This document shows, piece by piece, positions 10,398 to 51,728 of a stretch of 64,000 nucleotides of DNA. The notes under the pieces were generated by a model that was not told the DNA's origin, made no database searches, and saw only the letters and a program-made list of their open reading frames with translations. Every line of letters starts with the position of its first letter. Within the stretch, counting starts at the first letter, position 1. The translations under genes were made by a program, and so were the position numbers. Origin of the DNA: Parcubacteria group bacterium (lineage in GTDB: Bacteria; Patescibacteriota; Minisyncoccia; Moranbacterales; UBA11712); NCBI GenBank assembly GCA_041659065.1, contig JBAZYY010000002.1, positions 24,091 through 88,090 of the forward strand. Reading direction: 5' to 3'.

Positions 10398-10523
10398 AAT
10401 TTTGAATTTAGAATTGTGAATTAAGAATAGGGATATTACCTGCTAACCGAAAGAAATACAGGATGTAGATCATTTTGTGATTAATATTCTATATTCCATA
10501 TTCCCATTCTCAATTCTTTATTT
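10398..10523. repeat. AT-rich palindromic intergenic element, family A (GAATTGTGAATT … ATTCTATATTCCATATTCCCATTCTCAATTC)
   Basis: Imperfect ~125-bp palindrome; the 31-mer ATTCTATATTCCATATTCCCATTCTCAATTC is identical to the copy at 11860-11890. Confidence 0.6.
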
Positions 10524-39028: not shown

Positions 39029-40339
39029 CTATTGAGTTGGATTAGTTTCCACCCACCCCGGAGCTTTGACATAGACCTTGGTTGAGCAAGAATCGTCTCC
39101 CGCGACAGCATCTGAGGTTGCCGAACCATAGTTTGATGAACTGTCCGCCGTCACTTTGCATTGCGTTCCGTCTTTGGATACGTCGGTAATATTTGTTGAT
39201 CCCCCTACTTTTTTTATGCATGTTTCAAGAGCACAACCAGCCTCTCCGGTCACAGACACGTCGTAGCTCGCAGTGCTCCCAGACCTAACCTCAAAGCTAT
39301 CCGGACAGCTGACCTCACAGTCCAAGGTTTTGATAAGATTTACGTTTGCCGTGGCCGCGCCACAATCACCCGTAACATTCACAGGCACGGTGTCATTAGA
39401 GGAGAAGTCGATCCCCTTCACATAGACTGTGCATTCGCCCCCGCTAATCGCACAAGAAGTACTATCCGCGGCTCCCGAACAGGTTGAGTTAGAAGAGATG
39501 TCTATTTTAGCTGAACCATTGTCGCTGAAATTAACAACCTGTCCATCTGTTGAATCCTCCGTTGTTACAACTAGTGGGCGGCAATTTTGGATATGATCCA
39601 ATGTCGGCCCAGAAGCGCTATGAATCGCACAGACATTTTCAATCTTTGCCTGACCAAAATCAATCCAACCTAGCTCACCAGCTATAGCACTGTTGGTTCC
39701 TGACCAACCATATCCAGACAGAGTGTTATCATTATTAATGGTGATTCCATAAGGAGTTCCGTTCGCATTTCCTTCAAGACTTATCCATCCTTGCCACCCC
39801 CCTGAATTTGGCGTAGCTTTCTCAAATTCTTTTTTTATTTCTAAAAATCTCGCCCAGCCTTTTATCCGATTGCCAGTTCGCCATGCTTTGCAAGGGTTAC
39901 TCGGGCACCCACCTAGTTCTGAAGAATTAAAACTTATATACCCCAAACCTGGACTCCAAGCGTAACCAGACAACTCACCTCCGCTCGTTGGACTAGGAAT
40001 GTTAACCCTATAGAGTTTTACTGCCCCCGAAGTTGGACATCCTGCAGGCGCTCCTTCTGAAGATCCTTCATATGTTCCATTTTCGTTAACATCACAATTT
40101 TTGCTATTCATGCTCACCCAGTATACACCAGTTTCGTTGCCATTTATACTGCCGTCACTCGATTCCTCAGTTCCTCCCCACAGCCAGCCAGTTATAATGC
40201 CCGCTGCTTGGACTTTAACAATACTGGCCACAGCAGCAATGGAAAAAACCAGAATCAGTGAAAGCATAATCCTGCGGCTGCGCGATATGATGGCTTTTTT
40301 CATTTTTCTTTTTTTATATTTTATGCGAGAGAAGACCAA
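39029..40339 (-). CDS. Large secreted protein with aromatic GW/GWIS repeats and Cys-rich C-terminal region
   Basis: Signal peptide; repeats GWLWGG, GYAWSPGLGYISFNS, GWQGWISLEG, GYGWSG…LGWIDFG; Ser/Thr/Cys-rich tail. Confidence 0.5.
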   Translation of the reverse strand: MVFSRIKYKKRKMKKAIISRSRRIMLSLILVFSIAAVASIVKVQAAGIITGWLWGGTEESSDGSINGNETGVYWVSMNSKNCDVNENGTYEGSSEGAPAGCPTSGAVKLYRVNIPSPTSGGELSGYAWSPGLGYISFNSSELGGCPSNPCKAWRTGNRIKGWARFLEIKKEFEKATPNSGGWQGWISLEGNANGTPYGITINNDNTLSGYGWSGTNSAIAGELGWIDFGQAKIENVCAIHSASGPTLDHIQNCRPLVVTTEDSTDGQVVNFSDNGSAKIDISSNSTCSGAADSTSCAISGGECTVYVKGIDFSSNDTVPVNVTGDCGAATANVNLIKTLDCEVSCPDSFEVRSGSTASYDVSVTGEAGCALETCIKKVGGSTNITDVSKDGTQCKVTADSSSNYGSATSDAVAGDDSCSTKVYVKAPGWVETNPTQ

Positions 40340-40499
40340 TAATTTATTTGATTATAGCATAATTTTGATATTGCGACAAAATACCTTCTTATCCACAGGC
40401 AGTATTCATGCCGCATATAAAACGGTTTGAATAAAATGCACAGCTATTTCAAAAAGTAGAAAAATAAGATACAATGTTAATGATAATTTTCGATGTCCA

Positions 40500-40590
40500 A
40501 TTCACAATTTTCAATCAATGATCAATTTTTAAAATTTTTAAACATTGAAAATTTATTGTAAATTGAAAATTAGTAATTGAAAATTTGAGA
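40500..40590. repeat. AT-rich palindromic intergenic element (family D, CAATTTTCAAT / ATTGAAAATTG)
   Basis: Same heptamer arms as 5040-5180. Confidence 0.55.
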
Positions 40591-41099
40591 TGAAAATTGC
40601 CATGAAAAAAATACTTCTATCAATCATTTTAAGCTTGTTTGCGGCTGTACCGATGGCTCATGCCATCTGTCCCGTCTGCACCGTAGCTGTGGGAGCGGGG
40701 CTGGGACTGGCTGAATATCTTGGAATTGATGATTCCATCTCGGGACTATGGATCGGAGCGCTGATCGTCTCAATGTCGCTTTGGACCATAAATTGGTTAA
40801 GCCAGAGAGAAATAAAATTTAAAGGCAGAAAAATCCTTATTTTTATTGCCTATTATCTGATTGTGGTCGGACCGCTTTTTTGGAGAGGTATCATCGGCCA
40901 TCCCTTTAATAAGCTCTGCGGGATTGATAAATTATTATTTGGAATTATACTCGGCAGCGTCCTTTTCGCAGCCGGAGCCATCTTCCATGTTTACGTGAGA
41001 GAACGAAACGGAAGCAAATCATATTTTAAGGGGCAGAAAATAGTTTTCGCCATCACGCCACTCATAGTCGCAAGCGTAATTTTATATTTTACTTGCTAA
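40590..41099 (+). CDS. Hypothetical membrane protein
   Basis: 4-5 TM helices; N-terminal CPVC. Confidence 0.45.
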   Translation: MKIAMKKILLSIILSLFAAVPMAHAICPVCTVAVGAGLGLAEYLGIDDSISGLWIGALIVSMSLWTINWLSQREIKFKGRKILIFIAYYLIVVGPLFWRGIIGHPFNKLCGIDKLLFGIILGSVLFAAGAIFHVYVRERNGSKSYFKGQKIVFAITPLIVASVILYFTC

Positions 41100-49283: not shown

Positions 49284-49313
49284 ATTTTATTCGGTTAATT
49301 TTTTCCATTATTT

Positions 49314-49383
49314 CGGAGTGGGGAGAATCGAACTCCCGATACAAGACCCCCAGCCTTGCGTACTACCACTATACTACACTCCG
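49314..49383 (-). tRNA. tRNA-Pro (anticodon GGG)
   Basis: 70-nt cloverleaf folded by hand: acceptor CGGAGTG/CACTCCG, D-arm GTAT…GTAC, anticodon loop CTGGGGG (U33, G37), T-arm GGGAG-TTCGATT-CTCCC; no encoded CCA. Confidence 0.85.
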
Positions 49384-49511
49384 ATCTTTTTCTTTAAATA
49401 ATTTTCTAGCTTGCCTTTCAAAGCCTCTCTTCTATAGCCACTTTTAAGAAATGTTTCCGCCACTAAAACATCTTTTTTCTCCCCACATGCTTCGAAAAAC
49501 ACCAGTTTGAA

Positions 49512-49796
49512 TTATTTTTGCGCGCTTTTCAGCGAATCTTCCAGTCTAACATTTTCTTTGGCAAGATCGTCATTCGCCCGCATTAAATCGTCCTGCGCAT
49601 CTTTCATTTTCTCCATTTCAGATTCCATGCTCTTTACCGCATCGGCAAGCCCGCCTAATTTTCTTCTTAAACCATCTAAATTGCCGCTTACGTTTTCTAT
49701 CTCCCTGCTCTTAAGCTCGTAGTTTATCGTATCCAGCTGTTTTTTAATACTTTCTGAATCTCTTGCCGCATCGTTAATTTGGTCGTAAAGCGCCAT
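49512..49796 (-). CDS. Hypothetical coiled-coil protein
   Basis: 94 aa, heptad-like charged pattern. Confidence 0.4.
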   Translation of the reverse strand: MALYDQINDAARDSESIKKQLDTINYELKSREIENVSGNLDGLRRKLGGLADAVKSMESEMEKMKDAQDDLMRANDDLAKENVRLEDSLKSAQK

Positions 49797-50024
49797 GTTT
49801 TTGTCTAAATTATTAATTTAAAACTAACAAAAATTTAGCACAAAAAATAAAAAAGGGGAAGTATCTTTTAAGATGTTGCCCCGATGATATTTTATCGACG
49901 AAATTTTTAAAAACAAACTAATGGCTTATCTCTAAAAATGGAATTGGGGAGCTCCTCGTAATTAAGTAAGCTCCCCTTTCGAATTTCGAGAACGCATCGA
50001 AAATAATCAACTATTTATCCCATT

Positions 50025-50198
50025 TCAGTTGTCTGCGAACAGCCCTCCATAAAACACGAAATCATGTATTCGCAGTTTTTTAATAGCCGCGGCTGACCCC
50101 TTTCTTTCTATCAGCTTTTTAACCCGCTTAATTCTCGCATAACCTGCTGGCCGCTTATTGCCTTTGCCATCCTCCCCAGAAACTTTTCCCTCGACCAT
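50025..50198 (-). CDS. Small basic protein (57 aa), unannotated by the ORF track
   Basis: ATG at 50198 preceded by AAGGAGGT RBS (7-nt spacer); MVEGKVSGEDGKGNKRPAGYARIKRVKKLIERKGSAAAIKKLRIHDFVFYGGLFADN. Confidence 0.45.
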   Translation of the reverse strand: MVEGKVSGEDGKGNKRPAGYARIKRVKKLIERKGSAAAIKKLRIHDFVFYGGLFADN

Positions 50199-50305
50199 AA
50201 GCCCTACCTCCTTGAGGTTAATACCATCCGCTGATGGTAAAAAATATCCACCGGGGGTTTCCCGCTGGGTTTAGTATTTTATCTTCTGATTTGGGTTGAT
50301 TTTTT

Positions 50306-50398
50306 CTAAAACACTTTACTCAGCGAAAAACCGAAGTTTTGAATAAACTTCTTCTTGAGAATTACCGTATAAATATTTTTCGCTGAATTTCGATTCAT
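50306..50398 (-). CDS. Candidate 30-aa peptide, paralog of 50512..50622
   Basis: MNRNSAKNIYTVILKKKFIQNFGFSLSKVF; shares the GFSLS(K/R)VF C-terminus with the upstream peptide. Confidence 0.2.
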   Translation of the reverse strand: MNRNSAKNIYTVILKKKFIQNFGFSLSKVF

Positions 50399-50454
50399 GT
50401 TAATTTAACTTTATCTCATCTTCGAAAATACGTCAAATAAATTTCGCTCTTTCT

Positions 50455-50485
50455 TTGAAAAAAAGAGCCGGGTTTTTCGCCCGGC
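50455..50485 (-). terminator. Intrinsic terminator (minus strand) between the two candidate peptide genes
   Basis: GCCGGG-TTTTTCG-CCCGGC stem with the U-run on the minus strand (plus-strand A-run 50457-50464). Confidence 0.45.
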
Positions 50486-50511
50486 GGAGTGTTTTACGTG
50501 CTATAAGAAAT

Positions 50512-50622
50512 TTAGTTTGTAATCTTATGAAATACTCTGCTCAGTGAAAAACCAGTACTCACTAGCAGTAGCATGAGAACCAACATTGTCTGGGTCATAA
50601 TATTCGCCAAGTAGATTTTCAT
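50512..50622 (-). CDS. Candidate 36-aa hydrophobic peptide
   Basis: MKIYLANIMTQTMLVLMLLLVSTGFSLSRVFHKITN; followed by a terminator hairpin. Confidence 0.25.
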   Translation of the reverse strand: MKIYLANIMTQTMLVLMLLLVSTGFSLSRVFHKITN

Positions 50623-50738
50623 AACAACCTTTATTTTATTAAAATGGCTTACTGCAGTCAAGCCGCTTATCCACAATTATCTATTGCTTTTTTGTCTTTT
50701 CTATTACCTCGTTATAATCAATATTTATCAGAAATTTA

Positions 50739-51728
50739 CTACCATACTTTGTAGGATGGAAGTATTCGCATTTCTTCACTCGTAAAACGATCTTCATTAT
50801 AAAATACTGAGGCAGCAGCCCCTAGAAGCGGAGCGTCCTCTCCCAATATAGAAACTTTAATCTTGGGCTGACGCAAAAATTTGTCAACATTTTTTAGCGC
50901 TGGCTTCAATATTAATTGTTTATTATTCAAAACGACTGATCCACCTAAAACAATTAATTCCGGGTCATAAGCTGCGATAACGTTTGAAATTCCCCTGCCG
51001 TTGATTTTACCCAGATCTTCAATAAACCAAAGGCAGATTTTATCGCCTGATTTTGCCTCTTCAAAAATATCTTTTGCCGAATTTAGCTTTCGGAAATCCA
51101 AATTTTTTCCTTTTGTCCAAGCTTTAAAAAATTTTGGAATATTTCTTCCAGAAGCATATGCTTCCCAATGACCTCGTCCCTTTTTGCATGTGCAGGTTAG
51201 GTTATATTGAGTATCGACAGTTATATGCCCAACTTCTGCTGCATTACCATCTTTCCCTAAAAGCAATCTGCCATCCATAAAAACTCCTCCACCGACACCT
51301 GTAGACATAGTGATGTAAACTACATTGGAAATTTTTTTCCCCTCTCCAAAAAATTTTTCCGCCAGCACTCCCACGTTGCAATCATTATATAAAACCACCG
51401 GGAAAGAAAAAACTTTCTTGAGCGGATCGACAATCGGGATACAATTAAAATATAGATTCGGCGGGTTAATACTACCGCCTCTTTTAAAATCAATTGGTCC
51501 CGCTATACTTACCCCTAATCCCAGTATATTGGCTTTTGATTGATCCTTAAGTAGAAGATTAGTCTCTCTGGTAATCTGCTTGGAAATTGCAAAATTATTT
51601 CCTTGGCGGACAGTTTTAGTTAATATTTTTTTTATAATCCTACCTTTATCATCCACGATAGCAGTTCGAAAATTTGTCGCGCCAATATCCACCGCGATTG
51701 CAAGATTTTTTTGGTTTCTTTTTTTCAT
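50739..51728 (-). CDS. ROK-family sugar kinase (glucokinase-like)
   Basis: AIAVDIGATNFR, GVGGGV, zinc motif H…CTCKKGRGHWEAYASG. Confidence 0.8.
   Translation of the reverse strand: MKKRNQKNLAIAVDIGATNFRTAIVDDKGRIIKKILTKTVRQGNNFAISKQITRETNLLLKDQSKANILGLGVSIAGPIDFKRGGSINPPNLYFNCIPIVDPLKKVFSFPVVLYNDCNVGVLAEKFFGEGKKISNVVYITMSTGVGGGVFMDGRLLLGKDGNAAEVGHITVDTQYNLTCTCKKGRGHWEAYASGRNIPKFFKAWTKGKNLDFRKLNSAKDIFEEAKSGDKICLWFIEDLGKINGRGISNVIAAYDPELIVLGGSVVLNNKQLILKPALKNVDKFLRQPKIKVSILGEDAPLLGAAASVFYNEDRFTSEEMRILPSYKVW

What the first reader, a model, noticed from the sequence alone, without database searches (positions are those of the whole stretch)
49314..50740. tRNA-Pro-adjacent 0.9-kb gene-poor island with three unannotated small ORFs and internal terminator
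- Downstream of a coiled-coil ORF and tRNA-Pro(GGG) lies 940 bp without any ORF of 60 codons or more.
- A 57-aa basic ORF (50025..50198) has a perfect AAGGAGGT RBS.
- Two candidate hydrophobic peptides (36 and 30 aa) share a GFSLS(R/K)VF C-terminus. At the nucleotide level this is the repeated motif CTCAG(C/T)GAAAAACC.
- They are separated by a GC-hairpin terminator (50455-50485).
- Small hydrophobic peptides with their own terminators next to a tRNA are reminiscent of type I toxin or membrane micropeptide loci.
- Alternatively the repeats are RNA-level elements.
Basis: seen in the sequence. Interest (0 to 1): 0.55.

Follow-up and report, generated by a model that had tools for sequence, protein, structure and literature searches.

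The report
Two leader-peptide attenuators in a CPR bacterium
The "gene-poor island" holds two related, unannotated control modules in which a tiny translated gene sits in an RNA that can fold into either a stop signal or a read-through signal. They are conserved across a clade of Parcubacteria, where this kind of gene control has not been described.

Summary
Its features read on the minus strand, so the island lies upstream of the coiled-coil gene and tRNA-Pro.

The 36-aa ORF ("B", 50622..50512) and the 30-aa ORF ("A", 50398..50306) are paralogous and conserved.
- B follows the ROK kinase gene in more than 30 loci from related Parcubacteria/Moranbacteria. A occurs in five lineages.
- Each unit has a TTGAC-17-TAnnnT promoter ending 9-10 nt before the ATG, so the mRNA is nearly leaderless.
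- Each has four RNA segments that form three mutually exclusive helices. Seg0 and seg1 lie in the ORF. Seg1:seg2 is an antiterminator. Seg2:seg3 is an intrinsic terminator.
- The terminator T-run usually abuts the strong Shine-Dalgarno site of a small downstream gene.
- Codon analysis shows that B is translated. It also shows RNA-level constraint exactly at seg0 and seg1.
- The repeated motif CTCAGYGAAAAACC is seg1, so it is both coding and structural.

My best reading is ribosome-mediated transcription attenuation. Relatives carry a third paralogue, an Ile-run leader upstream of a LeuA-like gene. B may also be a functional membrane micro-protein. A conserved DnaA-box-like site flanks its promoter.

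No Rfam, Pfam, NCBIfam or literature match was found. A type I toxin or an integration scar is not supported.

The parts
50667..50675 (.). DnaA-box-like 9-mer (TTATCCACA on +, TGTGGATAA on -), 5 nt upstream of the -35 of unit B
   Evidence: One of only two perfect boxes in 64 kb. A perfect or one-mismatch box sits at this position, in either orientation, in 15 of 17 distinct B promoters. It is absent from A promoters.
50633..50661 (-). Promoter of unit B: TTGACT, 17-nt spacer, TAAAAT. The -10 hexamer ends 10 nt before the ATG, so the mRNA is nearly leaderless
   Evidence: Promoter scan scores 10/12. A promoter-like site occupies the same place in 18 of 20 distinct B regions. The spacing is read.
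50512..50622 (-). Short ORF B, 36 aa: MKIYLANIMTQTMLVLMLLLVSTGFSLSRVFHKITN
   Evidence: Conserved ORF of 36-38 aa in more than 30 related loci. Codon analysis: the tail has pN/pS 0.14 with pS 0.75, and the middle has pN/pS 0.52.
50600..50611 (-). B seg0 (CTTGGCGAATAT), pairs with the 5' part of seg1 (anti-antiterminator). This copy is degenerate
   Evidence: Helix 0:1 is 88.8% paired across the family, against 44-54% for slid controls. The window copy pairs at 9 of 12 positions.
50528..50552 (-). B seg1 (GTTTTTCACTGAGCAGAGTATTTCA), which encodes GFSLSRVF.
   Evidence: Synonymous divergence is depressed here (pS 0.26, against 0.67-0.75 in the flanking regions).
50472..50496 (-). B seg2 (TAAAACACTCCGCCGGGCGAAAAAC). 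It is complementary to seg1 and contains the 5' half and loop of the terminator
   Evidence: Inverted repeats I1/I2. Helix 1:2 is 85.6% paired against 39-54% for slid controls, with 6 pairs showing compensatory change. RNAalifold predicts the same helix independently.
50457..50485 (-). B intrinsic terminator: GCCGGGCGAAAAACCCGGC plus TCTTTTTTTC
   Evidence: Terminator scan. Hairpin energy -12.2 kcal/mol.
50408..50436 (-). Promoter of unit A: TTGACG, 17-nt spacer, TAAAGT. The -10 hexamer ends 9 nt before the ATG
   Evidence: Promoter scan scores 9/12. TTGAC lies at the same place in A units of L011, L014 and L019.
50306..50398 (-). Short ORF A, 30 aa: MNRNSAKNIYTVILKKKFIQNFGFSLSKVF
   Evidence: Homologous 30-31 aa ORFs in L011, L014, L019/L023 and L038. 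nhmmer E = 4.7e-20.
50376..50387 (-). A seg0 (TTCAGCGAAAAA)
   Evidence: Perfect 11-nt inverted repeat I6 with seg1. 12 of 12 positions pair.
50307..50331 (-). A seg1 (GTTTTTCGCTGAGTAAAGTGTTTTA), which includes the stop codon
50257..50281 (-). A seg2 (TAAAATACTAAACCCAGCGGGAAAC), the antiterminator partner of seg1. It overlaps the 5' half of the terminator
   Evidence: 22 of 25 positions pair. This helix dominates the MFE fold of the unit (-42.9 kcal/mol, z = -4.65).
50239..50268 (-). A intrinsic terminator: CCAGCGGGAAACCCCCGGTGG plus ATATTTTTT
   Evidence: Hairpin energy -13.1 kcal/mol. Coordinates.
50222..50239 (-). Small perfect hairpin TACCATC-AGCG-GATGGTA between the A terminator and the Shine-Dalgarno site
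   Evidence: Read from the sequence. Function unknown.
50025..50213 (-). Shine-Dalgarno site AAGGAGGT (50206-50213) plus the 57-aa basic ORF (50198..50025), the gene gated by unit A
   Evidence: No room for a promoter of its own between the A T-run and the Shine-Dalgarno site. Annotated as hypothetical protein WC858_02130, with no other homologue and no Pfam or NCBIfam hit. Weak similarity to the A-gated 70-aa ORF of L014 (E = 2e-6 pairwise). The AlphaFold model has low confidence and shows two helices.
49842..49882 (-). Terminator-like hairpin GGGGCAAC...CTTCCCC plus T-run, closing the variable region
   Evidence: The same ...CTTCCCC-T-run element is conserved upstream of the coiled-coil gene in most of the 12 distinct loci examined.
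49833..49842 (-). Extended -10-like TGTGCTAAAT, the likely promoter of the coiled-coil gene / tRNA-Pro unit
   Evidence: TGTGATAAAT/TATGATAAGT is conserved at this position in relatives. Its function is inferred.
49512..49796 (-). 94-aa coiled-coil ORF, the conserved right-hand neighbour
   Evidence: Only sub-threshold coiled-coil Pfam hits. Small coiled-coil ORFs lie upstream of tRNA-Pro in relatives.
49312..49384 (-). tRNA-Pro(GGG), the conserved right-hand boundary of the locus
   Evidence: ARAGORN. Rfam tRNA 60.3 bits. Same tRNA in the same position in relatives.

Best explanation
The island contains two paralogous ribosome-mediated transcription attenuators in tandem.

**Anatomy of each unit**
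- A sigma-70-type promoter whose -10 hexamer ends 9-10 nt before an ATG, so the transcript starts 2-4 nt before the start codon.
- A short ORF: B has 36 codons and A has 30.
- Four RNA segments. Seg0 (codons about 5-8) pairs with seg1 (the FSLS(R/K)VF codons).
- Seg1 can instead pair over about 25 bp with seg2. Seg2 contains the 5' half and loop of an intrinsic terminator, whose 3' half is seg3 plus a T-run.

**Inferred logic, as in classical trp/leu attenuation**
- With no ribosome on the ORF, helices 0:1 and 2:3 form and transcription stops.
- A ribosome that reaches seg1 or the stop codon keeps seg1 from seg2. The terminator forms and transcription stops.
- A ribosome that stalls between seg0 and seg1 separates those two segments. 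Seg1 is then free to capture seg2, the terminator cannot form, and RNA polymerase reads on.

**What lies in the stalling interval**
- In B it is a Leu/Val run rich in the rare codon CUA.
- In A it is an Ile/Lys(/Trp)-rich stretch.

**What is gated**
- In the window, read-through of A expresses the 57-aa ORF. B reads into A.
- In relatives, B gates hypervariable Cys-rich (zinc-ribbon-like) mini-proteins.

**Additional features of B**
- B is under peptide-level selection at its C-terminal tail.
- B persists where it has no gene to gate, so it probably also makes a functional single-pass membrane micro-protein.
- Its promoter carries a conserved DnaA-box-like site.

**Shown:** the ORFs, promoter-like sites, terminators, conservation of the helices, and the coding and RNA constraints.
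**Inferred:** the switching itself and the signal it senses.
For: **Conservation and synteny**
- Nucleotide-level conservation just downstream of ROK appears in genomes whose ROK protein is only 58-62% identical.
- A strict pattern scan of metagenomes, with about 0 chance hits expected, found 26 further loci.
- All informative loci share the order M24 peptidase - ROK - B - variable region - tRNA-Pro(GGG), with a coiled-coil ORF just before the tRNA where this was examined.

**RNA structure**
- All three helices are predicted in every member. Terminator energies run from -6 to -15 kcal/mol, the 1:2 helix from -12.6 to -29, and folds containing 0:1 from -19 to -32.
- Helix 1:2 has 85.6% of cells paired against 39-54% for slid controls. 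Six pairs show compensatory change, and 0 of 500 shuffles reach the observed pairing or covariation score.
- RNAalifold independently predicts the same helix.
- Helix 0:1 has 88.8% of cells paired against 44-54% for slid controls.

**Translation**
- The ATG and stop positions are conserved.
- The tail has pN/pS 0.14 with pS 0.75. The middle has pN/pS 0.52, with the third codon position the most variable.
- Synonymous divergence drops to 0.26-0.37 exactly at seg1 and seg0.

**Leader layout**
- The terminator T-run abuts AGGAGG plus ATG of a downstream ORF in 13 of 17 distinct B contexts and in 5 of 5 A contexts. This leaves no room for a separate promoter.

**Stalling interval of B**
- Leu makes up 37.5% of residues, Val 21% and Ile 3%. 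Genome-wide, Leu is 8.6% and Ile 8.4%.
- CUA accounts for 33% of the Leu codons in this interval, against 7.2% in the window's long ORFs.

**Independent precedent in the same clade**
- A third paralogue with the same architecture encodes runs of Ile codons: IIIISIII, NIIISIII and NIIGII.
- It sits directly upstream of a LeuA-like gene in L014, L041 and L011.
Against: - No transcript, ribosome or termination data exist for these uncultured organisms, so the switch itself is inferred.
- The genes gated by A and B are not amino-acid genes. They are a 57-aa basic ORF and Cys-rich mini-proteins with no family match. The sensed signal is therefore uncertain.
- A Leu/Val-rich stretch is also what any transmembrane helix looks like.
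- B is retained, with its helices, in lineages where no Shine-Dalgarno-ORF follows it (L012, L020, L032 and the window).
- B's C-terminal pentapeptide is conserved at the amino-acid level. Simple attenuation does not explain either this or the previous point.
- The window's own B copy has the weakest helices (1:2 at 19/25 positions and -12.6 kcal/mol; 0:1 at 9/12).
- Most compensatory changes separate type A from type B, so they represent few independent events.
Confidence: 0.6

Rival explanations
1. B, and perhaps A, are simply stand-alone micro-protein genes with their own promoter and terminator. B would be a single-pass membrane peptide. The conserved helices would serve mRNA stability or control of the ORF's own translation, not conditional termination.
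For: - Peptide-level purifying selection on the B tail (pN/pS 0.14) and on its hydrophobic core.
- B is retained where no downstream gene follows.
- The window's B keeps its peptide while its helices are weakened.
- A conserved DnaA-box-like site suggests a regulated gene in its own right.
Against: - The 25-bp seg1:seg2 helix specifically sequesters the 5' half of the terminator, and it is conserved with compensatory changes.
- T-runs abut the Shine-Dalgarno sites of downstream ORFs that have no room for a promoter of their own.
- A-type peptides are poorly conserved outside the RNA segments.
- The Ile-run paralogue upstream of a LeuA-like gene is a textbook leader.
- This reading is compatible with a dual function, so it is only partly a rival.
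Confidence: 0.2
2. This is a type I toxin-antitoxin locus. The small hydrophobic peptide would be a membrane toxin, kept in check by an antisense RNA and by fold-back structure in its mRNA.
For: - B is a 36-aa peptide with one hydrophobic helix and a basic C-terminus.
- There are tandem paralogues with their own terminators, and the mRNA is highly structured.
Against: - The locus is single-copy and strictly syntenic across deep divergence.
- No conserved antisense promoter was found. Three sporadic hits appeared in 20 regions, against 18 of 20 for the sense promoter.
- A is not hydrophobic.
- No hit to any toxin model in Pfam or NCBIfam.
- The terminator-then-Shine-Dalgarno layout indicates a leader.
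Confidence: 0.04
3. These are untranslated structured RNAs, either sRNAs or protein- or ligand-dependent riboregulators. The ORFs would be incidental.
For: - Strong nucleotide conservation of seg1 and of the non-coding seg2.
- The A unit folds far better than shuffled sequence (z = -4.65).
Against: - Invariant ATG, conserved frame and conserved stop position.
- High synonymous and low non-synonymous divergence in the tail and the middle.
- No Rfam match, even at E up to 10.
Confidence: 0.05
4. The region is debris of a mobile element integrated at tRNA-Pro, or a cassette array whose hairpins are recombination sites.
For: - The middle of the locus is hypervariable between lineages.
- Near-identical B units are joined to different downstream cassettes, with crossovers inside seg2.
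- A serine recombinase lies next to the same tRNA in L068.
Against: - The island is on the 5' side of the tRNA.
- Both flanks are conserved.
- No integrase is present in the window locus.
- The arms read 5'-GTTTTTC...GAAAAAC-3', which is the reverse of the order I recall for integron attC sites (RYYYAAC...GTTRRRY).
- The mosaicism is explained by ordinary homologous recombination in conserved segments.
Confidence: 0.03

Closest known systems
Classical leader-peptide transcription attenuators of amino-acid operons (trpL, leuL, ilvL/ivbL, hisL, pheL, thrL; Rfam Leu/Trp/His/Thr/Phe leader families)
   Same: - A short translated ORF overlapping the first of four RNA segments.
- Mutually exclusive anti-antiterminator, antiterminator and intrinsic terminator.
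- A run of particular codons in the stalling interval. The Leu run with the rare codon CUA recalls E. coli leuL (from my own knowledge). The Ile-run paralogue precedes a LeuA-like gene.
   Different: - No sequence or structure match to any Rfam leader family.
- The mRNA is nearly leaderless and has no Shine-Dalgarno site for the leader ORF.
- The genes gated by A and B are tiny, fast-evolving proteins of unknown function, not biosynthetic operons.
- The B peptide itself is conserved.
- The host is a CPR bacterium.
Leaderless polycysteine short ORFs acting as cysteine-responsive attenuators in mycobacteria (Canestrari et al., bioRxiv 10.1101/834739)
   Same: Unannotated leaderless short ORFs are the first cistron. 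The position of the ribosome on a codon run decides an RNA structure that controls the downstream genes (abstract).
   Different: [quoted passage not shown] Here the competing structure is an intrinsic terminator, so control acts on transcription. The codon runs, host phylum and gated genes also differ.
Type I toxins (Fst, Ldr, TisB, Hok and similar)
   Same: A peptide of about 30-40 aa with a single hydrophobic helix, its own promoter and terminator, tandem paralogues and a structured mRNA.
   Different: No conserved antisense promoter. Stable single-copy synteny. The second paralogue is not hydrophobic. Terminators lead straight into downstream genes.
Regulatory nascent or arrest peptides (TnaC, SecM, MifM, ErmCL)
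   Same: A short upstream ORF whose amino-acid sequence, not only its codons, is conserved near the C-terminus (B tail YKIxN, pN/pS 0.14). This could indicate action of the peptide inside the ribosome.
   Different: No sequence similarity and no evidence of arrest. At 36 aa, B is too short for its hydrophobic segment to leave the ribosome before termination. A SecM/MifM-type monitoring of membrane insertion is therefore unlikely (inference).

Membership tests
Ribosome-mediated (leader-peptide) transcription attenuator | Short translated ORF at the 5' end of the transcript | tested here: met
   The ATG, frame and stop are conserved in more than 30 loci. The codon-level signature of translation is present. 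Translation has not been observed directly.
Ribosome-mediated (leader-peptide) transcription attenuator | Intrinsic terminator between the leader ORF and the gated gene | tested here: met
   A hairpin plus T-run is present in every member. The T-run abuts the Shine-Dalgarno site of the next ORF in 13/17 B contexts and 5/5 A contexts.
Ribosome-mediated (leader-peptide) transcription attenuator | Antiterminator helix mutually exclusive with the terminator, one arm lying in the ORF | tested here: met
   Seg1:seg2, about 25 bp, 85.6% paired, with 6 compensatory pairs. RNAalifold predicts it independently.
Ribosome-mediated (leader-peptide) transcription attenuator | Anti-antiterminator helix within the ORF, so that an untranslated RNA terminates | tested here: met
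   Seg0:seg1, 12 bp, 88.8% paired against 44-54% for slid controls. Covariation is weak, with 2 pairs.
Ribosome-mediated (leader-peptide) transcription attenuator | Regulatory codons matching the pathway of the gated genes | tested here: inconclusive
   B has a Leu/Val run with 4.6-fold enrichment of CUA. The gated genes have no known function. The feature is met only for the Ile-run paralogue upstream of the LeuA-like gene in relatives.
Ribosome-mediated (leader-peptide) transcription attenuator | Read-through depends on translation or on charged tRNA | not testable with these tools
   This needs reporter assays, Term-seq or in vitro coupled transcription-translation.
Rfam leader or other RNA families | Score at or above the gathering threshold of a curated covariance model | tested here: not met
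   Only tRNA reaches threshold in the window and in 10 related loci. Nothing credible appears in the island even at E up to 10.
Type I toxin-antitoxin | Small hydrophobic membrane peptide | tested here: inconclusive
   B fits. A does not.
Type I toxin-antitoxin | Antisense RNA antitoxin with its own promoter | tested here: not met
   No conserved promoter-like site on the opposite strand, only 3 sporadic hits in 20 regions.
Type I toxin-antitoxin | Match to a known toxin family model | tested here: not met
   No Pfam or NCBIfam hit. Zero hits with E up to 0.001 in 1.84 billion representative proteins.
tRNA-targeted integrated element | Insertion at the 3' end of the tRNA, with an integrase and flanking direct repeats | tested here: not met
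   The island is 5' of the tRNA. No integrase lies in the locus. No direct repeat of the tRNA 3' end was found.

The most novel reading that the evidence does not exclude
B may be a dual-function gene.
- Its product would be a conserved, DnaA-controlled, single-pass membrane micro-protein with a cellular role of its own, for example linking replication or the cell cycle to nutrient state.
- Its mRNA would double as a leucine-sensing, nearly leaderless attenuator.
- That attenuator would gate a hypervariable, recombining set of zinc-ribbon mini-proteins.
- A, B and the Ile-type leader would together form a small ribosome-directed regulon in an amino-acid-auxotrophic CPR symbiont.
Probability: 0.2. 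Interest if true: 0.8.

Novelty: new variant of a known kind. Interest (0 to 1): 0.62.

Why it matters
- Regulation in Candidate Phyla Radiation bacteria is almost unknown. They have few transcription factors and cannot be grown alone.
- This locus gives a concrete, conserved and testable regulatory device in them: nearly leaderless leader-peptide attenuators in at least three paralogous types.
- It adds two small-protein families that are missing from the protein databases and family libraries searched here.
- It also points to a conserved DnaA-box-like site at a non-origin promoter.
- If the stalling signal is amino-acid supply, these elements show how an auxotrophic symbiont senses what its host provides.
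- More generally, it shows that "gene-poor" gaps in CPR genomes can hide dense regulatory content.

Tried and rejected
- **Rfam.** I scanned the whole window at gathering thresholds, the island at E up to 10, and 10 related loci. Only tRNA was found.
- **Pfam and NCBIfam.** I scanned the three peptides, the coiled-coil protein and the downstream mini-proteins. Nothing reached threshold. The weak DnaJ-CXXC and anti-TRAP (RtpA) hits to a Cys-rich protein (E 0.004-0.03) are leads only.
- **Protein searches.** The 57-aa ORF found only itself. The B ORF found no word-sharing candidate and no hit with E up to 0.001 among 1.84 billion representatives.
- **Genome-contig scan with ROK.** It returned only distant ROK proteins (24-29% identity) and no syntenic relative, so that scan was wasted.
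- **Closest relative (ROK 81%).** It has no retrievable DNA.
- **Viral scans.** The B pattern gave 0 hits. The looser A pattern gave 24 hits. Most (18) carry an unrelated recurrent ORF of 39 aa (full length in 16 loci) ending in FSFSKVF, and none matches the family profile.
- **nhmmer with the family profile.** No further copies were found in the window.
- **Architecture scan of the window.** I searched for further promoter - short ORF - terminator units. It returned only B and one unconvincing candidate at 10473..10408.
- **AlphaFold on the 57-aa ORF.** The model has low confidence (pLDDT 60.6), so I ran no fold search.
- **Second DnaA box.** I checked whether the box at 40389 marks dnaA or oriC. 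The neighbouring ORFs have no Pfam hit.
- **Integron attC analogy.** I considered it and rejected it on the order of the arm motifs, which I recalled from memory.
- **More distant Parcubacteria.** Wildermuthbacteria and Sungbacteria, with ROK about 50-55% identical, lack both the synteny and the element.

Full report
**Observation.** The window comes from a Parcubacteria-group (CPR) MAG. The 57-aa ORF is NCBI hypothetical protein WC858_02130.

Around the finding all genes run on the minus strand:
- ROK kinase, 50739..51728 (Pfam ROK, E = 3e-54)
- the island
- a 94-aa coiled-coil ORF, 49512..49796
- tRNA-Pro(GGG), 49312..49384

The island therefore lies upstream of the coiled-coil gene and the tRNA. 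No ORF of 60 codons or more lies in 49797-50738. The AAGGAGGT site, the two small ORFs and the GC hairpin are all present.

The shared motif is not chance. There are two matches, against 0.03 expected. It is the core of a 44-nt direct repeat spaced 221 nt apart, with inverted copies at 50471-50496 and 50376-50386.

**Conservation.** Three other assemblies carry an identical region. To reach more distant relatives I used ROK homologues and fetched their contigs.

- Sensitive blastn showed that 50458-50675 is conserved at 62-66% nucleotide identity directly downstream of ROK in L011 and L012. The ROK proteins of those loci are only about 61% identical to the window's.
- 50204-50408 matches a second site in L011.
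- The alignment revealed a conserved TTGAC box, a -10 box, an invariant ATG, a conserved stop and a terminator.
- A strict back-translated pattern, with a chance expectation of about zero, found 26 more metagenome loci.

This defines two families:
- **Type B** (36-38 aa), consensus M.xxIAKNSxQTLLVLMLLLFVVRFSLGRVFYKIVN.
- **Type A** (30-31 aa), for example MKNNSTKKYIVKIWKKALFIGSCDFSLSKVF.

Synteny is constant: M24 peptidase (-), ROK, B, a variable stretch, tRNA-Pro(GGG), with a small coiled-coil ORF just before the tRNA where this was examined. More distant Parcubacteria (Wildermuthbacteria, Sungbacteria) lack both the synteny and the element. A family profile finds only the two copies in the window.

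**Anatomy.** Coordinates are.

| Feature | Unit B | Unit A |
|---|---|---|
| Promoter | TTGACT-17-TAAAAT, 50633-50661 | TTGACG-17-TAAAGT, 50408-50436 |
| -10 to ATG | 10 nt | 9 nt |
| ORF | 50622..50512 | 50398..50306 |
| seg0 | 50600-50611 | 50376-50387 |
| seg1 | 50528-50552 | 50307-50331 |
| seg2 | 50472-50496 | 50257-50281 |
| Terminator | 50457-50485 | 50239-50268 |

- The 9-13 nt spacing between the -10 and the ATG is conserved across the family, which implies a 2-4 nt leader. A promoter-like site occupies this place in 18 of 20 distinct B regions.
- After the A terminator come a small hairpin, the Shine-Dalgarno site at 50206-50213 and the 57-aa ORF.
- Further downstream a conserved terminator (49842-49882) and an extended -10-like TGTGCTAAAT precede the coiled-coil gene. 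These are conserved in relatives too.

**RNA switch.** In every member, seg1 can pair either with seg0 or, over about 25 bp, with seg2. Seg1 comprises the FSLS(R/K)VF codons, and seg0 lies at codons about 5-8. Seg2 contains the 5' half and loop of the terminator.

- Per-sequence folding gives terminator energies from -6 to -15 kcal/mol. The 1:2 helix runs from -12.6 to -29, and folds containing 0:1 run from -19 to -32.
- On a 22-sequence alignment, helix 1:2 has 85.6% of cells paired, against 39-54% when the partner is slid. Six pairs show changes on both sides, and 0 of 500 shuffles reach the observed pairing or covariation score.
- RNAalifold predicts the same helix without guidance.
- Helix 0:1 has 88.8% of cells paired against 44-54% for slid controls, with weaker covariation.
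- Most compensatory changes separate type A from type B, so the number of independent events is small.
- The window's A unit folds strongly (z = -4.65). Its B unit is the weakest of the family.

**Translation.** For type B, pairwise codon analysis shows the following:
- The C-terminal tail YKIxN has pS 0.75 and pN 0.107, giving pN/pS 0.14.
- The hydrophobic middle has pN/pS 0.52, with the third codon position the most variable.
- Synonymous divergence falls to 0.26 at seg1 and 0.37 at seg0.

The ORF is therefore read as protein, and the two pairing segments carry an extra RNA-level constraint.

**Leader layout.** The terminator T-run is followed within a few to about 40 nt by AGGAGG and the start of a small ORF. 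This holds in 13 of 17 distinct B contexts and in all 5 A contexts, and it leaves no space for a separate promoter.

- B usually precedes Cys-rich (CxxC) mini-proteins of 55-107 aa that vary greatly between lineages.
- A precedes small ORFs that differ between lineages. The window's 57-aa ORF resembles the A-gated 70-aa ORF of L014 only weakly (E = 2e-6 pairwise).
- None of these proteins matches Pfam or NCBIfam.

**Mechanism.** The four-segment layout is that of classical attenuation (established knowledge for trp, leu, ilv and his).
- With no ribosome, helices 0:1 and 2:3 form and transcription stops.
- A ribosome on seg1 or at the stop codon also allows 2:3 to form, and transcription stops.
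- A ribosome stalled between seg0 and seg1 separates them and frees seg1 for seg2. The terminator is then pre-empted.

With standard ribosome footprints, the stalling interval that yields read-through is roughly codons 10-19 (inference). In B this interval is the run QTLLVLMLLL.
- Leu makes up 37.5% of these residues, Val 21% and Ile 3%. Genome-wide, Leu and Ile are equally common.
- The rare codon CUA supplies 33% of the Leu codons in this interval, against 7.2% in the window's long ORFs. This resembles E. coli leuL (my own knowledge).

Independent support comes from relatives. A third paralogue has the same promoter-to-ATG spacing, a terminator, and an ORF 3' end complementary to the terminator's 5' half.
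- It encodes MKLKNIFIIIISIIITRLELSSEFSF in L014, MKRNNLFNIIISIIIRQALPSEF in L041 and MKSPSRSKNIIGIIQPAEIVGLVL in L011.
- It lies directly upstream of a LeuA-like (HMGL-like plus LeuA_dimer) gene in all three loci.
- This is the textbook pattern of a codon run in front of a biosynthetic gene. It shows that the clade uses this device.

**What does not fit simple attenuation.**
- B is retained, with its helices, where no gated ORF follows. This is the case in the window, L012, L020 and L032.
- B's tail is conserved as protein.
- A perfect DnaA-box 9-mer (TGTGGATAA; window 50667-50675) lies 5-7 nt upstream of the -35 in 11 B promoters.
- The box appears with one mismatch in L012, in the opposite orientation in L020 and L031, and in the opposite orientation with one mismatch in L014. 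It never appears at A promoters.

I therefore think B also encodes a functional single-pass membrane micro-protein under additional control at the promoter. I hold this second layer with less confidence.

**Rivals.**
- *Type I toxin:* not supported. The synteny is stable and single-copy, no antisense promoter is conserved, A is not hydrophobic, and no toxin family matches.
- *Untranslated RNA:* contradicted by the codon signature.
- *Integration remnant:* contradicted by the position 5' of the tRNA and by the conserved flanks.

Strains with near-identical B units carry different downstream cassettes, with crossovers inside seg2. Ordinary homologous recombination explains this.

**Novelty.** I found no Rfam, Pfam or NCBIfam model. 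The B peptide has no protein-database relatives. No paper combines CPR or Parcubacteria with attenuation.

The closest described systems are the classical amino-acid leaders and the mycobacterial leaderless polycysteine short ORFs, which act on translation. This is a new variant of a known kind of regulator, in a phylum where none was known.

Noticed in passing
L014:7400-7600; L041:1490-1670; L011:10600-10740: A third paralogous leader type was found in relatives only. It has TTGACA-17-TATAAT, then 7-8 nt, then an ATG (seen in L014 and L041; the L011 promoter was not identified). The short ORF has runs of Ile codons (IIIISIII, NIIISIII, NIIGII). An intrinsic terminator follows, directly upstream of a LeuA-like (possibly citramalate synthase) gene.
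   Followed up: partly
window 50667-50675 (also 40389-40397): There are only two perfect DnaA boxes (TTATCCACA) in the 64 kb. One sits 5 nt upstream of the B promoter and is conserved, in either orientation, in most relatives. The other lies in an intergenic region between divergent ORFs that have no Pfam hit (39029..40339 - and 40590..41099 +).
   Followed up: partly
window 49833-49882, and the same place in L012, L019, L020, L029, L032, L034, L038, L068: A conserved terminator hairpin (...CTTCCCC plus T-run) is followed at once by TGTGATAAAT-like sequence (extended -10) and an A-rich leader without a Shine-Dalgarno site, upstream of the small coiled-coil ORF. The coiled-coil gene and tRNA-Pro(GGG) look like one conserved transcription unit.
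   Followed up: partly
L016, L018, L029, L030, L033, L040 (downstream of the B stop codon): Strains with the same or nearly the same B ORF combine two loop variants with three variants of the terminator 3' half and downstream cassette. This is a recombination mosaic whose crossover lies inside the conserved seg2.
   Followed up: partly
L038:4071-4306 (minus strand): The A-type ORF of this locus is interrupted near codon 11 by an insertion of about 70 nt that forms a hairpin (CACCCCGTACCACAAATTTATAATTGTGGTTTTGGGG). It may be a miniature mobile element.
   Followed up: no
L043-L065 (IMG/VR viral contigs), e.g. L043:6218-6337: A recurrent ORF, 39 aa at full length (e.g. MGRILLHRNDLGIWPLPPYHLGHLHVCHSVMLFSFSKVF), appears in 18 of the 24 viral contigs hit by the loose A pattern. 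It is unrelated to the family by profile search. It may be an alternative frame of a conserved phage sequence.
   Followed up: no
L068:5866-7464; L012:5268-5942: Mobile-element genes lie next to the locus in relatives. A large serine recombinase abuts the 3' side of tRNA-Pro in L068. An IS1595-family transposase lies just upstream of ROK in L012.
   Followed up: no
L015:6257-6577, L019, L038, L014:6163-6435, L011:7454-7939: A family of Cys-rich mini-proteins (C..CGG...CPRC...C..C.FRC...RF.CS) is gated by B in several lineages. It matches no family. Weak sub-threshold hits go to the DnaJ CXXCXGXG domain and to anti-TRAP (RtpA).
   Followed up: partly
window 10408-10473 (-): The architecture scan flagged one more promoter plus 21-aa ORF (MIYILYFFRLAGNIPILNSQF). 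The terminator-like hairpin would fall inside the next gene, so the candidate is unconvincing.
   Followed up: no
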